Below are positions 31,301-37,300 of a stretch of DNA of 64,000 bases, in pieces (within the stretch, counting starts at the first letter, position 1; each line of letters begins with the position of its first letter). Both the position numbers and the translations under genes were made by a program. The notes under the pieces were generated by a model that was not told where the DNA came from, searched no databases, and worked only from the letters and a program-made list of their open reading frames with translations. The DNA is from Catajapyx aquilonaris (taxonomy: Eukaryota): positions 1 through 64,000 of the forward strand of contig JYFJ02001426.1 of assembly GCA_000934665.2 (NCBI GenBank). The letters are read 5' to 3'.

Positions 31301-34300
31301 TGACCTTTTCTTTCATTCTTTACACACTTTGCCAAAGGAGGCTCATGAAAGCTGCTTTTTGTTTTCTAATAGCATTTATAGCCCGGAAACATTATGGTGA
31401 AAAAGAAAAAAAATATGCACTACTCTCTTTAACCTACAAACCACTTACTCTCCTTTTCTTCCATTCTGCTTACTTTTACTTCTGTACTCTTTCAAGTACA
31501 TTTTAGATTTCTATTCAGAAATTTAGTCAATAATGATGTATTTCTCTATAACCAAATGATAATTTGTGCAACACCTGGGTTGTTAATTTGAAACGTGCAT
31601 GCATTCTTTTTTCACAAAGCGGATGTCATATATTATGATAATTATAGCAGTGCTGACAAACCTGTGATACCACAACCAAACTTGCCCTAAGATATATTTG
31701 GGTTGCACTAATAGTTTCAAGTCGTTTGTCAGCATGCATGTGACTATTTTCCTGTTATCTGCTAAAATAGACTAATATCCTTACCTGTCCATATTTGTTG
31801 TATGAAATACAGGGTGCTCACTAGGTGGTCCCCCCAAATAATCAGCTATATTTTTCTTCCCACTCTACCTGGAACCATGATGTTTGGGTTCAAAGTTACC
31901 TTAGTTCATGGGAATGTAGGCCTTTTTTTAAATTAATTAATTAATTAATTAATTAATTTTTAAGGATACCCCGTGCTCGAGCCATTCGGCTCGTTTTGGG
32001 GGGAGGGGGAAGGTTCCCAAGGGGGGGCATCCTCGGTTTATAGTCACTCACGACTCTCTCAGATCACCAGACCTTTTCTCTGGCCCCGGGCAGCTAAGGG
32101 AGTGCAATGCTGCCCCGGCGTGTCGGGTGAAAAGCGGAAAAAGACCAGGCCAAGCAGAGGTGACGGGGACGGGATTTGAACCCCGGCCTCTCACTTGGCT
32201 AGTCAGTGGCGTAACCACTAGACTACCACGCCTCCCTGGGAATGTAGGACTATTCACAATCAATGCTGGAATTGACCTTCAACGACCTGTGTACTCGAAT
32301 GCTTTGTGACGTGAATCACCTTATTATTGCATGTCTTCTGCAACATATTGACATCAAGATTTCGGATTGCTGCACTGAGTGTTTTGGACCAACAGAGTGA
32401 CAGATGGTCACCTTTTGAGGAATAAAATGATCACCTTTTGTGGAATAAAAAATCGACGAAATGAGTTCCATGCGGCTGGCGTCACCAAAAAATGTCATTG
32501 GATGTTTTGTAACAAGAAACTGGGTATTCTGTTAACACCTGCCAAAGAGCCGCGAATGGGAACATATGAAGAATTGTGGTTACAACAATATGCCTCCAGG
32601 CTAGAAGACCTGTAAAGTAACATAAATGCAGCAATCTAGACTGTTGATGAGGTTATGCTGCGGAGGACCCGCACTAATAAAATGATTCGCATCACGTCAC
32701 GTTCGAGTACGTATGGAGGTCGTTTAAGGTCAATTCCAGCATTTATTGCGAATGTTGCTAAATTCTCATGAACTAAGGTAAGTTTTAAACCAAACATCAT
32801 GTTTCTAGGTAGAACGGGAAGAAAAATATGTATTTCTCTTTGGGGGGACTACCTAGTGAAACACCCTGTAGTTTTCATAGGTAAAACTGGAAGCTGTGCT
32901 AAAGAAGGTCACTTCTTTATGAAGTATTACTGTCAAGTACTCTATGTCATGGATTCTAATCAGATATTATTATCATGGGTATGTACAGTAGTTATTCATT
33001 AGTAGCTTTAATGAACTTTTGATCAGGAGCTTCTTGTAATGGCAACTGACATTTGCAGCATTTTCCATTCAATAAATTACCAAGATGAAGTGACTGATGA
33101 AGAAGACCTACTGTACCTTATTTGTCATGGACCTTCTCATCAAGCCTTATCAATTAATCATGTTAGAAATATGGCACTTTGCACAGGCTCAGTTGATTCT
33201 GTGAATTGTGTTGTATATGGCACCTGCAAACTGAATGGCGTTTCAAATTATCAACCCTGCAGTAGTTTAAAATCAATCTTGCATGAGTCAAGCATGTGTT
33301 AAAATGTTTCACTTCATTGCAAAATTAAATAAGTAACTTCTTTACATCTGTTGCTACTGTAAACTTTCTTAAATTCACATAACAAACCTTTCTTTGAATT
33401 GTAACTTGTAGATGTGAACTAAATTGATTCATGTAACACTTGTAGGACGTATATAAATCTCATCGCCGGATGTCGCTGGACGAACTCATTCCAGATTGGC
33501 CTGAACTGCTCAAAGTGGATAAAGAGCTTTTGGAGGTTGGGAAAGATTCGTGTACTTATTTTCCATGTGTTAAATGCTGCGGTGGCGTCTGAAAAATGCA
33601 GCGACCTTTGTTGTCTGTTTCACTCAAATACCCCCAAGAGGCAGCAACACCGTCACAATACTCCATGACAATTTTTGTATTTTTAGATTATTGGAAGATG
33701 ATTTTTTTTTACTTCGCAGAAGAGATTGTATGCTTTTTTTCACATTTTCATTTTTTTAAACAGCTATTTTTTCTTTCTCTTCTGCTATTTTGTACACAAA
33801 ACTTGTGGTTGATTTTCTTCTTTCGCTCTCAATGCCTCAGGCTTAAATGTTGTTGTGACCTGTCCAAGTCTATTCAATAGAACTCTACCTGTTTAGCATT
33901 TCCTTGCATTTATTTGTTTTTTAAATATTGCCACATCTGTTATAAAAAAGTTGTTCTAGAGCTATTAAGACTTTTCCTTATAACAAGTCATAATTTATAT
34001 TGCAATAACTTGATGCACTCTATTAACAGGGGTTCTTGCTCATGCAGTATGACCTTTTCATTTGAATGCTTTATTGAAAAGTTGTTAATTGAAATGCCTG
34101 CCGAAGCCAGTTGTTAGAGGGTAATGAAATTTTCATAATTTTTCCTTTTTGTCATTTTCTAAAAATTGATGTTAGTGACATATTCTAGTTGAGGAGGTGG
34201 TAAATGTATTGGAATGTCAAGGGCTTACTGTGGTAAGTGTCAAAAATCCAGTTAAAGCAGTGCTGGGTTATATGAATATAAATTACATCTGGCTATAAAG

Positions 34301-37300
34301 GAGGAGCCTTTGTATTTACTTTTGGTTTGTGTGATGCTATTTAGAAGTATTAGAGTGTGAATGCCTGTTTTCATATGTTGCATTTTTTTTTGTTAGTGGT
34401 GGTGGTCACAGTGTCCAAACCTGATAAATTCCTCGTTTTTAAGGAGGAGGGCCAAAGCAGCTTGATAATCAGAAGAAAACATCATTAGGATATTAGAGTT
34501 AGTAGAGCCCAATGACAGAATCTTACAACTATGGTGCTCACTTCATGACTCGCCCATTTGTGTTTCTAGAGTAATGACAATTCAAGATCAAGTTCAAGGA
34601 GGCCATCTTTGGCGGAACTTATTCCAGACTGGCCAGTTCTTCATCATTTCGTTAAAGAGGAGGTTGGAAACGAATTGACACTTTGTACTCATTAATCACT
34701 CTCTCCTCTCAATTTTTTGGAACATCAAGCTAATACATGATACTTTATTTTTTGTTAAAATACTTTTATTACTTAGCTTGTCCTACATTAGCTTAATAAT
34801 CACTGCTGACTTCTCCTTTTGAGGGACCAAGAAATAATATTAGATTGAACAGTTGCACATATGACCATGAAATTTTCACAAATTTCTGACTACTTCAGTG
34901 TACTCATATTTTGCTCCCCATTGACTTCCTACAACGTAAGCCACATCTGCACCAGTGTTTCAAGTCACTGCCCTAACTTTCTCCTGACACTGACAATCAT
35001 GCCTTTTCCACAGTTGCTAACTGAAATAAAAATTGTGGTACATGTCAAGAATAGTTAGCAGCTGAAGGGGCTGTGTGTTTCTGATAATATTTGTCTTGCA
35101 AATATTTTAAAAATACTACATTATTCAGTAGATAATGAATTTACAACGTCCTCTTTTGAGTCATGGAAAAGAGATCTTGGTTCTTGATTCTTCAATAAGA
35201 GAAGCTGAGGGTGAAAATTGAGCTAATGCAGGCTGAGCTCACTTGTCCTCGGACTACTAGTATCAATGCCAGTTCTTCATTTTTCGAGCACGCCAGAATC
35301 AATACAACAGTATGTTATGCTTAGCCTTTCCTGTCATCTTGGATCTATCCTCTGCCATTTCGCCTCTCCTAATCCTGTGACTCTAGAAACTGTACAGCTC
35401 TCTCTCCCAGTTCATGGATAATTCTGTCCTTGTCTCTGTGGTCGTCAATTGTAGCTTTATTTTCTGCTTCATATTCTTGCTGCATGGATTTTTGATCTGC
35501 AACTTGGGCATTACATCCAAGTGATATTTTAGAATTAAGTGTCACTTAGAATGCAAAAGTGAAAATAATGGTATTTTTGATACATCACATTTGCATTCTA
35601 GTTTGAAGTACAATTTGTATGCTTTGTACAAGGTATGGGTGTTCAGTTGTTAAAAATATGACATATGTTGCAGAATGTATTACATTCCCCTGTGCATTGA
35701 ATATTCTGCAACATATCGTGCCTTTTGACTGGGAGGTTAATAACTTAAAATAATATTGCCGTCTATCAGTTTTTGTGGTGTAGGCCTACACTTCAGTTCT
35801 ACATGCATTTGACAATATAATTTTGTTGCTAGAATCATTTGCATATGATCTGTTATTAAAACTGTTATACCTCCCATTCAAAAATAAATTCTGTTTAGCT
35901 GTTGCATTCGATTACACAGCTTTTTTACTTCAGTTACTTCTGATTTTTTGTTATTTGTTTTGTTTTCCTCGGTTACTTCTTCTCTTCTATCTCTATTCTT
36001 CTTGGCTCTCTGTAACTTTCAATTTTGTTTTCAACTTACTGCCTAGAATCTTGTTTTCATTTATTCCATAATTATTTCAGTTTACTTTCAGGATACTTGC
36101 TGTCGCTTCAACAGTTCTTTTCATCTGATTTTTTGATACACCCACACATAATCTTTCACTCATGTGAATTTAATCTCCAAGTGTTCTCATTTTGTGCAAT
36201 TCATTGCCTTATAGAAACAGGAACAATTCCTGAAACCACTTGTGGATCAATTTGTGAAGGAAGGAAGGGAGAAGAAATGTGTGTTTGAGGCTATATTTTC
36301 CAAGCCAAACTGCAAGCCAAAGTGGTACTGCAGGAAAGATGTAAGTCCTATCCATGATATCTTATGTTGTTTTTTTTTTCTCTCTACAAGTAGCAACTGG
36401 TACTGTACTGTACAAAGCACTGGATAACACATTTCTTCATTTTAGGAACTGTTCCCTGGTTCGAGGTACAAAATGAAGAATGAAAATGACACGTACACCC
36501 TTATAATATTTGGTCCAAAAATTGATGATATGGGGAAATACACGTGTGAAATCATGGGACTACAGTCTACTGCATACATGAATGTAGAGGGTCAGTATCA
36601 TGCTATTAGATTGTGGCAATTTATCTTTCTTAATTATTCAGATTATGCAATTTCCTGTCTCACTATACTTGTGCCATTCATGCCATGTGCCACTTTGGCA
36701 ATCCAGTGGTTATATGCATAAAACTTTACCTGATTATTATCAAGTAAGACTTAATTTTGTAGCCATTACATGCAAGTAATAGTGACAGATCATGAATATC
36801 CCATATAGAAAAGGAATTGTCATGCTGTGTAAATTCGTCATTGGCTGTAAATATTATAACTGCTCTTCAACAGAGTGTGACCCTGTTTACGAATTCTTGA
36901 AACATCTGCCTAAGAAGGAGGAAGGCTACACTACAAAGGAAGTGGAATTAGAGTGTACTGTAAACAGTGGAAGGGCATCAGTTACATGGTTCAAAGGTGA
37001 AACGGAACTGGAGGTGAGATTAGAGAAACATTCATCCCTGAGGGTTATGCTGGCACTGATTTCATCATGTTGACTTTTAGGATGGAGATATGTATGAAAT
37101 TAACAAAGACATTACTGGCGTGTGCAAGTTGGTGATCAAGCGTGCAAAGTTGACTGACTCAGGAGAATTCATATGCAAGATTAACAGGCAAGAAACAAGG
37201 ACCATTTGCAATCTTAAGATCCTTGGTGAGTACAACATTGCAAGACATTAAAATTAGACACGTTGGCTTGTTTATTAATACATGTCTATGTTATCAGAAT

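What the first reader, a model, noticed from the sequence alone, without database searches (positions are those of the whole stretch)
33446..34662. Hidden duplicated cassette exons carrying a molluscan catch-twitchin D1-like PKA motif
Seen: two phase-0 exons (90 and 93 nt), absent from the ORF track, lie deep in a 7.3 kb intron. They encode [16 protein letters not shown] and [16 protein letters not shown] and have similar donors (GAG|gttggga, GAG|gttggaa). They would insert between the DFRAML linker exon and the next Ig domain. Recalled knowledge, to be verified: the D1 PKA site of Mytilus twitchin, tied to catch release and alternatively spliced between tissues, reads approximately RRPSLVDVIPDW and lies near a DFRxxL motif. 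Inference: this arthropod projectin can splice in zero, one or two D1-type phospho-switches, suggesting a catch-like, cAMP-releasable thick-thin filament tether in some muscles.
Basis: partly seen in the sequence, partly recalled or inferred. Interest (0 to 1): 0.82.

Follow-up and report, generated by a model that had tools for sequence, protein, structure and literature searches.

The report
Hidden phospho-switch exons in arthropod projectin
Three small exons hidden in a long intron of an arthropod twitchin/projectin muscle gene encode an ancient linker with two kinase-A-type sites, matching the stretch where mussel twitchin carries its catch-releasing site, so arthropod muscle may share that switch; expression and function are untested.

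Summary
Exons A (33446-33535) and B (34570-34662) have AG/GT borders, are phase 0/0, and encode paralogous RRxSL-ELIPDWP-xL peptides. Nine of 13 shared core residues use different codons, which indicates selection on the peptide.

A profile of A+B found 36 true matches in 1.84 billion proteins. Named gene models place the module at the same spot (Ig, DFRxxLK linker, RRxS sites, IPDWP, five Ig, Fn3) in bivalves, rotifers, a sea spider and a stick insect. Four other arthropod models splice the DFRAML exon straight to the next Ig.

So these are genuine, ancient exons, apparently optional across arthropods. They are orthologous to the bivalve twitchin linker that the literature says holds the D1 PKA site.

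Not shown:
- The exact Mytilus D1 peptide; the papers were not held.
- Any RNA evidence in this species; no run was listed.
- Phosphorylation or filament binding.

The exons are already present in public arthropod gene models. My searches found no held paper that prints the motif together with twitchin.

Verdict: new member of a known kind, with moderate interest.

The parts
28478..28649 (+). 3' exon of the Ig domain upstream of the linker (first Ig of the six-Ig tract). It ends in phase 1, donor CAG|gtttgt.
   Evidence: Pfam I-set positions 42-90, E 1.6e-6. Acceptor aacag|GGC read. 57-65% identical to insect and ostracod projectin models.
28730..28869 (+). Linker exon (D)[46 protein letters not shown]. 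It carries the conserved DFRxxLK motif and ends in phase 0, donor AAG|gtatgt.
   Evidence: 62-74% identical to Drosophila, Diaphorina, Rhopalosiphum, Cyprideis, Plutella and Timema models. D(F/Y)RxxLK(H/K)R is also present in the rotifer, bivalve and sea spider proteins.
29865..29984 (+). Exon X, new here: 120 nt, 40 aa, phase 0/0. It encodes [40 protein letters not shown]. Acceptor tattgcag|CAT, donor CAG|gtagtc.
   Evidence: Sequence. tblastn: Timema P0048 residues 356-403, 48% identity, E 3e-10; P0004 residues 6-41, 43% identity, E 4e-4. In Timema, P0004 and P0005 it directly precedes the A-type motif: WLK|D... against the window's WLQ|DVYK. In the AlphaFold model of the P0004 homologue, the X-like part forms three strands plus a helix, pLDDT 70-85.
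33446..33535 (+). Exon A: 90 nt, 30 aa, phase 0/0. It encodes [30 protein letters not shown], with a PKA-type site RRMSL followed by ELIPDWPEL. Weak donor GAG|gttggg.
   Evidence: A-type orthologues are P0004 (DVFDIQRRPSLQELIADWPIL..KEK), P0029 (same borders..Q|DVFDIH....KEK|V) and Timema.
34570..34662 (+). Exon B: 93 nt, 31 aa, phase 0/0. It encodes [31 protein letters not shown], with a PKA-type site RRPSL. Weak donor GAG|gttgga.
   Evidence: tblastn: P0004 82% identity, E 2e-12; P0005 85% identity, E 4e-12. B-type tail L(H/Q)(H/P)(F/I)..(E/T)E in P0004, P0005, P0006, P0009, P0011, P0013, P0017, P0027, P0040 and the third Nymphon copy. The read-through 'VG' of the donor is shared by P0004, P0005, P0008 and P0009.
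36215..36340 (+). First exon of the next Ig domain: [42 protein letters not shown]. It starts in phase 0 and is the landing site of every form.
   Evidence: In four arthropod models this sequence directly follows ...KVE(K/R). In Nymphon it follows the third motif copy...LKEE|KPDSFLKPLVDKHVKE.

Best explanation
The 7.3-kb 'intron' between the DFRAML linker exon and the second Ig of projectin's six-Ig tract holds three real, symmetric (phase 0/0) coding exons, X, A and B.

A and B are ancient tandem paralogues of one module, R-R-x-S-L-x-E-L-I-P-D-W-P-x-L. The module is orthologous to the one in the same inter-Ig linker of bivalve and rotifer twitchin. That linker is where the literature places the Mytilus D1 PKA site.

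Inclusion would lengthen the Ig-Ig linker from 47 to as much as 148 residues. It would add a small folded unit (X) and two basophilic-kinase (PKA-type) serines. Each serine is followed by a short helix-prone ELIPDWP segment.

Proposed mechanism, by homology:
- Unphosphorylated, the linker and its flanking Ig domains bind the thin filament and myosin. This tethers the filaments and slows relaxation.
- cAMP/PKA phosphorylation of the RRxS serines releases the tether.
- Splicing sets whether a muscle has the switch.

Shown: the exons, their conservation, their position, and selection on the peptide.

Inferred:
- Alternative rather than constitutive use, about 0.65.
- PKA as the kinase, with filament release as the effect, about 0.4.
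For: Peptide-level selection: 9 synonymous against 5 non-synonymous differences in 18 codons, and 0 of 200,000 simulations.

Profile of A+B against 1.84e9 proteins:
- 37 hits at E<=1e-3, the best at 6.5e-20.
- 36 of the 37 carry the core; P0007 is a repeat artefact.
- In the 38-row alignment R, S, I, D, W, P and L are invariant.
- 42 of the 46 motif instances that the regex caught read RRx[ST][LIVMF].

A profile of the 36 true hits plus the two window peptides (alignment A2) gave 9 of 9 named hits with the motif: Adineta, Rotaria (two), Sinanodonta, Magallana 'Titin' K1R5L7, Nymphon 'Twitchin' (three copies), one JGI protein and Timema (two).

The position is the same. It follows Ig + DFRxxLK and precedes five Ig and then Fn3 in the three hit proteins long enough to count, P0041, P0044 and P0046. 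The window matches this.

X-A-B sit in one frame in P0004 and P0005. X then A occur in Timema.

Skip form: 4 of 5 arthropod models join ...KVEK directly to KQ.SFLKP.

Literature, passages read:
- Mytilus D1 is Ser-1075, between Ig7 and Ig8. It is a PKA site, and phosphorylation lowers binding to F-actin (PMC12040844).
- Aplysia and Mytilus twitchin inhibit the rate of relaxation (PMC4472019).
- In insect cDNAs the Ig linkers of this tract are 5-46 aa (PMC3835035).
Against: - No RNA evidence exists for this species. Inclusion, order and tissue pattern are untested.
- The Mytilus D1 peptide could not be read. The bivalve linker has several basic-x-Ser sites (Magallana S1072, S1101, S1127, S1134), so D1 may not be the IPDWP-linked serine.
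- By my count 8 Ig precede the motif in the oyster and 7 in Rotaria. The review says Ig7/Ig8 for Mytilus.
- Both donors (GTTGG) and the pyrimidine tract of exon A are weak.
- RRxS also fits PKG, CaMKII and other basophilic kinases.
- Four arthropod models lack the exons. That could mean loss in those lineages rather than skipping.
- P0004 and P0005 are unnamed reading frames. It is unknown whether they come from DNA or RNA.
Confidence: 0.6

Rival explanations
1. The exons are constitutive in this species. They are ordinary short coding exons that only an ORF-length filter hid, and the linker is always the long form. There is no splicing switch.
For: - The Nymphon and Timema gene models include them.
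- P0004, P0005 and P0006 carry the copies in one frame.
- Both copies are under strong purifying selection.
Against: - 4 of 5 other arthropod models skip from the DFRAML exon to the next Ig.
- Insect cDNA work reports linkers of 5-46 aa.
- All three exons are symmetric, and two have weak GTTGG donors. That is typical of cassette exons.
Confidence: 0.25
2. The module is a conserved docking or structural element. ELIPDWPxL would bind a partner or an adjacent Ig. The nearby serine would be regulated by another basophilic kinase (PKG, CaMKII or twitchin's own kinase), or not at all. There would be no cAMP-released filament tether in arthropods.
For: - The most invariant residues are I, D, W, P and L, downstream of the serine.
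- 4 of 46 instances lack RR (RSGSL twice, RKTSL, RNTSL), and the middle Nymphon copy has no serine site at all (RPTLADCITDWPSL).
- The model puts a short helix right after each serine.
Against: - The serine itself is invariant in the 38-row alignment, and 42 of 46 instances are full RRxS-hydrophobic sites.
- Bivalve twitchin is a documented PKA substrate in this part of the protein.
Confidence: 0.3
3. The exons are relics. They are conserved in some lineages but no longer spliced into mRNA in this species.
For: Weak donors, a weak acceptor tract for exon A, and no RNA evidence.
Against: - All three frames are open, with intact AG/GT borders in the right phase.
- The synonymous excess shows that constraint lasted long after the duplication.
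- Exon B is 82-85% identical to P0004 and P0005.
Confidence: 0.05

Closest known systems
Mytilus galloprovincialis twitchin D1 site (Ser-1075, linker between Ig7 and Ig8; Funabara et al. 2003, as described in the review PMC12040844)
   Same: - The host protein family is the same.
- The site is in an N-terminal inter-Ig linker.
- The chemistry is a PKA consensus site.
- Bivalve orthologues retrieved here show the same DFRxxLK...RRxSL..(I/V)PDWPxL linker, followed by five Ig and Fn3.
   Different: - The arthropod has two tandem copies on separate small exons, plus an extra exon X. Bivalves have one IPDWP copy, preceded by further RRxS sites in a longer linker.
- The D1 peptide itself was not seen in any call.
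- Phosphorylation and catch function are shown only in molluscs.
Public gene models: Nymphon striatum 'Twitchin' (P0046) and Timema douglasi Ig-domain protein (P0048/P0049)
   Same: These arthropod models already contain the module between the DFR(T/A)ML linker and the next Ig. Timema has X plus an A-type copy. Nymphon has three copies, the last of B type.
   Different: - They are automatic or community annotations without functional comment.
- Nymphon lacks X.
- The Timema model stops after the first copy.
Insect projectin (bent) N-terminus: N8Ig-PEVK-NTCS-1-N6Ig (Ayme-Southgate and co-workers; PMC3835035)
   Same: The window shows the same layout: PEVK-like exons, an NTCS-1-like conserved segment, six Ig, then Fn-Fn-Ig repeats.
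   Different: The passages read describe alternative splicing in the PEVK region and give inter-Ig linkers of 5-46 aa. They do not mention X/A/B-type exons between the first and second Ig of the six-Ig tract.
Cardiac myosin-binding protein C M-domain (PKA sites in a linker between two Ig domains)
   Same: It works alike. A disordered or partly helical linker between Ig domains of a thick-filament protein binds actin and myosin, and PKA phosphorylation of its RRxS-type sites loosens that binding and speeds relaxation. This is recalled knowledge; only titles and abstract openings were seen in the listing.
   Different: There is no sequence relation and the host protein is different. This is an analogy only.
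[quoted passage not shown]
   Same: A DFRxxL-type word (DFRAML) lies upstream in the same linker, 98 to 135 residues from exons A and B if X is included. It is conserved from rotifers to arthropods.
   Different: There is one copy here, against three in MLCK (recalled). Actin binding was not tested.

Membership tests
Twitchin D1-type phospho-switch linker (molluscan catch) | Lies in twitchin/projectin, in the inter-Ig linker just before the last five N-terminal Ig domains | tested here: met
   Window: one Ig, the DFRAML exon, X/A/B, five Ig, then Fn3. The same order is found in rotifer P0041, bivalve P0044 and sea spider P0046.
Twitchin D1-type phospho-switch linker (molluscan catch) | Sequence homology to the bivalve twitchin linker motif | tested here: met
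   The A+B profile recovers 36 true matches. The wider profile hits Sinanodonta at E 4.0e-9 and Magallana K1R5L7 at E 1.2e-8, with RRASLV(D/E)LIPDWPTL.
Twitchin D1-type phospho-switch linker (molluscan catch) | PKA consensus R-R-x-S-hydrophobic | tested here: met
   RRMSL in A and RRPSL in B. 42 of 46 motif instances across the retrieved sequences fit the consensus.
Twitchin D1-type phospho-switch linker (molluscan catch) | DFRxxL-type motif in the same linker | tested here: met
DFRAML at 28744. D(F/Y)RxxLK(H/K)R occurs in 13 of the 14 named proteins; P0047 lacks it.
Twitchin D1-type phospho-switch linker (molluscan catch) | The phospho-serine mapped as D1 in Mytilus is the IPDWP-linked serine | not testable with these tools
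   The primary papers and the Mytilus sequence were not held. The oyster linker has four RRxS sites, at S1072, S1101, S1127 and S1134.
Twitchin D1-type phospho-switch linker (molluscan catch) | Phosphorylated by PKA, and phosphorylation releases actin/myosin binding | not testable with these tools
   Needs biochemistry. Only the molluscan literature supports it.
Twitchin D1-type phospho-switch linker (molluscan catch) | Alternative, tissue-specific inclusion | tested here: inconclusive
   No RNA run was listed. Across species both forms exist in gene models: skip in 4 of 5, inclusion in Nymphon and Timema. The exons are symmetric.
Arthropod projectin/twitchin (bent-type) | N-terminal Ig tract, PEVK, conserved NTCS-1 segment, six Ig, then Fn-Fn-Ig repeats | tested here: met
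   - Ig-domain exons and PEVK-like exons at 17735-18584.
- An NTCS-1-like segment 39-63% identical to the insect models.
- Six Ig, with Fn3/Ig repeats from about 38900 onward.
- The layout follows PMC3835035.
smMLCK DFRxxL actin-binding repeat | Several DFRxxL repeats that bind F-actin | tested here: inconclusive
   Only one in-gene DFRxxL word was found in the linker. The repeat number in MLCK is recalled, and binding was not tested.

The most novel reading that the evidence does not exclude
The RRxSL-x-E-L-IPDWP-x-L module is a twitchin 'catch switch' found from rotifers through molluscs to arthropods, and it predates bivalve catch muscle.

In arthropods it was duplicated before chelicerates and mandibulates split. 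It was then placed on cassette exons together with a small new fold, X. Splicing would therefore dose a muscle with zero to two cAMP-releasable projectin-to-thin-filament tethers.

This would give a molecular basis for the faster relaxation and loss of catch-like tension that octopamine, serotonin and peptide modulators cause in arthropod muscle. That physiology is recalled, not seen in a call.
Probability: 0.3. Interest if true: 0.8.

Novelty: new member of a known kind. Interest (0 to 1): 0.55.

Why it matters
Catch, the near-free holding of tension, and its release by cAMP are usually treated as a bivalve speciality that hangs on twitchin's D1/D2 sites.

The linker module at the D1 position is conserved, residue for residue, in rotifers, bivalves, a sea spider, a stick insect and this arthropod. 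In arthropods it sits on optional exons. This suggests that a twitchin-based, kinase-released filament tether is an old and widespread way to tune relaxation and passive stiffness.

It names concrete serines and exons to test in arthropod muscle. It also extends the known alternative splicing of projectin beyond the PEVK region.

Tried and rejected
- RNA evidence: the look-up of sequencing runs on 28400-37400 listed no RNA holder, so read laying could not be used.
- Word-index search with the 41-aa frame of exon B: no candidate, and only proteins of 73-2000 aa were searched. Full-length twitchins (over about 2200 aa) were out of reach. None appeared.
The sources and taxa of P0004-P0040 therefore stay unknown.
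- Papers not held: Funabara 2003, 2007 and 2009, Butler 2010 and 2011, Siegman 1998, Probst 1994.
- Full-text searches found no twitchin paper that prints the motif:
  - 'twitchin' + 'IPDW': 0 papers.
  - 'twitchin' + 'D1 site': 0 papers.
  - 'IPDWP': 5 unrelated papers.
  - The 'projectin' searches were swamped by 'projecting' or by cardiac papers.
- Pfam: no family for X, A, B, P0004, P0005, P0006, P0021 or P0037.
- Foldseek of the P0004 model against PDB: best E 0.31. The Atlas gave no usable hit.
- Earlier scan notes held nothing relevant.
- Repeat scan of the intron: no complementary pair brackets A or B in a way that suggests a docking/selector arrangement. There is only a foldback element at 31818-32859.
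- Mutually exclusive use of A and B was considered and set aside, because both stand in tandem in P0004, P0005, P0006 and Nymphon.
- A calcineurin LxVP or PxIxIT reading of ELIPDWP was considered and dropped, because the spacing does not fit.

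
Full report
**1.

- Exon A, 33446-33535, is 90 nt and encodes [30 protein letters not shown], with donor GAG|gttggga.
- Exon B, 34570-34662, is 93 nt and encodes [31 protein letters not shown], with donor GAG|gttggaa.
- Each starts directly after an in-frame TAG whose AG is the acceptor.
- The upstream exon (28730-28869...MDFRAML...KKVEK) ends in phase 0. 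The next Ig exon starts in phase 0 at 36215. The intron between them is 7345 nt.
- The stop-to-stop frames are 48 and 41 aa. That explains why an ORF list with a length floor misses them.
- In the three + frames of the whole window these are the only two [ILV]P[DE]W matches.

**2. More than chance, and under selection**

- A and B share 16 invariant columns of 33.
- In the 18-codon core, 13 residues are identical. Only 4 use the same codon, and 9 differ synonymously. 23 of 54 nt differ.
- None of 200,000 simulations that put 23 random changes into the core kept 13 or more identities.
- The 60-nt flanks are 27% and 37% identical, which is random.
- So this is an old duplication in which both peptides have been kept by purifying selection.

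**3.

- A frame at 29829-30116 matches the N-terminal part of two database reading frames (P0004, P0005) and a stick-insect protein.
- The exon is 29865-29984: 120 nt, phase 0/0, tattgcag|CAT...CAG|gtagtc. It encodes [40 protein letters not shown].
- Support comes from Timema P0048 (48% identity, E 3e-10) and P0004 (43% identity, E 4e-4).
- In Timema, P0004 and P0005 this piece runs straight into the A-type motif. Their joint 'WLK|D...' matches the window's 'WLQ' + 'DVYK...'.
- An AlphaFold model of P0004 was made from an 11-row alignment. Its mean pLDDT is 68.8.
  - It gives X three strands and a helix at pLDDT 70-85.
  - It gives a short helix right after each serine.
  - The rest has low confidence.
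- No PDB fold matched; the best E was 0.31.

**4. What the module is**

A profile of A+B searched against 1.84 billion representative proteins gave 37 hits at E<=1e-3, the best at 6.5e-20.
- 36 carry the core. One (P0007) is a repetitive artefact.
- Most of the 36 look like short genomic reading frames. Conservation typically stops at a valine codon (GTN), which is an exon read into its intron.
- In the 38-row alignment R, S, I, D, W, P and L are invariant.
- 42 of the 46 instances that a regex caught are RRx[ST]+hydrophobic. The regex missed second copies lying close behind a first, and copies at the very N-terminus.

Searching again with that alignment among proteins of 339-2000 aa gave nine named or sourced proteins, all with the motif:
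- Rotifers: Adineta and Rotaria.
- Bivalves: Sinanodonta woodiana and Magallana gigas 'Titin' K1R5L7.
- The sea spider Nymphon striatum 'Twitchin'.
- One JGI protein.
- The stick insect Timema douglasi.

In eight of the nine proteins the linker starts with D(F/Y)RxxLK(H/K)R right after an Ig and holds RRxS sites that end in RRxSL..(I/V)PDWPxL; the JGI protein P0047 has the motif without that word. In the three proteins long enough to count, P0041, P0044 and P0046, the motif is followed by five Ig and then Fn3. The window has the same order.

**5. Relation to the mollusc D1 site**

- A review states that Mytilus twitchin is phosphorylated by PKA at D1 (Ser-1075), between Ig7 and Ig8. It adds that phosphorylation strongly lowers binding to F-actin and thin filaments (PMC12040844, passages read).
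- Another paper summarises that Aplysia and Mytilus twitchin inhibit the rate of relaxation (PMC4472019, passage read).
- The bivalve proteins retrieved here carry RRASLV(D/E)LIPDWPTL in this linker.
That argues the recollection is genuine.
- I could not see the Mytilus peptide, because the primary papers were not held.
- The oyster linker has four RRxS sites (S1072, S1101, S1127, S1134).
- My domain count puts 8 Ig before the oyster motif and 7 before the Rotaria motif.
- So orthology of the linker module is shown. Identity of the serine with D1 is likely but not shown.

**6. Host gene and taxon**

- The window has Ig exons, PEVK-like exons, an NTCS-1-like segment, six Ig and then Fn-Fn-Ig repeats. 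This is the projectin layout described for insects (PMC3835035).
- The DFRAML exon is 62-74% identical to the insect and ostracod models and 44% identical to the sea spider. This points to a pancrustacean arthropod.
- The module lies between the first and second Ig of the six-Ig tract.

**7. Optional or constitutive?**

- A third search (Timema residues 300-442, proteins of 775-2210 aa) returned five arthropod models: Drosophila rubida, Diaphorina citri, Rhopalosiphum maidis, Cyprideis torosa and Plutella xylostella.
- None of the five has the motif. Four join ...KVE(K/R) directly to K(Q/V).(S/Q)(F/W)(L/M)(K/S)P..., which is the window's 28869>36215 joint. One ends three residues after the linker exon.
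- Insect cDNA work reports linkers of 5-46 aa in this tract.
- On the other side, Nymphon has three copies in its model, Timema has X plus A, and P0004, P0005 and P0006 carry tandem copies in one frame.
- P0029 is close to the A part of P0004 and shows A as a stand-alone exon with the same borders as in the window.
- All three window exons are symmetric, and two have weak GTTGG donors. The 'VG' read-through is shared by four other B-type frames.
- This fits cassette use. Lineage loss in the skip-only species is not excluded, and no RNA run was listed for this stretch.

**8. Age of the duplication**

- A-type tails (..(V/I)K(E/S)K) and B-type tails (L(H/Q)(H/P)(F/I)..(E/T)E) recur in different sequences. 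The last Nymphon copy is of B type.
- Bivalves and rotifers have a single IPDWP copy.
- The duplication therefore looks arthropod-wide and older than the chelicerate-mandibulate split. This is an inference from few sequences.

**9. Mechanism and verdict**

- Most likely these are genuine, optionally included projectin exons. They would add one small fold and two PKA-type serines to an actin- and myosin-facing Ig-Ig linker. By homology with mollusc twitchin, this would act as a kinase-released tether.
- My estimates are: exons real, about 0.9. Orthology to the bivalve linker, about 0.9. Alternative use, about 0.65. A PKA-released tether, about 0.4.
- The module is already present in public arthropod gene models. 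Searches found no held paper that prints the motif together with twitchin. Subscription papers and supplements were not visible.
- Verdict: a new member of a known kind, of moderate interest, with clear experiments to do.

Noticed in passing
window 21076-21450 and 27779-27922 (+): The NTCS-1-like segment before the six-Ig tract carries four further RRxS sites: [34 protein letters not shown] and [11 protein letters not shown]. They are conserved almost word for word in the Timema, Diaphorina, Rhopalosiphum and Plutella models, partly in Drosophila, and loosely in Nymphon. RRPSVSEL resembles the start of the A/B module (RRPSLAEL) without IPDWP. The function of NTCS-1 is stated as unknown in PMC3835035.
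   Followed up: partly
window 28099/28100 (+): A GC-AG intron. The first half of the upstream Ig ends ...TTT TAC AAG|gcaagt and continues at aacag|GGC ATG ACT (28478). This gives FYK|GMTEIV, as in Timema FYKGMTEII.
   Followed up: partly
window 31818-32859: A foldback or MITE-like element inside the big intron. It has inverted arms of 102 nt (83% complementary), 84 nt and 52 nt. A frame reading ...[12 protein letters not shown] suggests a tRNA-derived SINE piece.
   Followed up: no
window 17735-18584 (+): PEVK-like exons ([29 protein letters not shown]...) lie upstream, as expected for projectin. The bivalve Sinanodonta model has a much longer, regular PEEKKPAPK repeat at the same place.
   Followed up: no
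window 14772-14939 and 22314-22400: Long trinucleotide microsatellites in introns. They read as poly-Leu and poly-Val in one frame.
   Followed up: no
P0004 residues 1-42 (model md13b49a489f4); window 29865-29984: Exon X is predicted as a small three-strand-plus-helix unit. It has no Pfam family and no PDB fold match, so it may be an undescribed mini-domain of arthropod projectin.
   Followed up: partly
P0047 (JGI, 948 aa): This protein has seven Ig, then a PEVK-like stretch, then the motif directly ([24 protein letters not shown]), without the intervening Ig and DFRxxL. It is either another arrangement or an incomplete model. The taxon is unknown.
   Followed up: no
window 10158: A single N in the window.
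   Followed up: no
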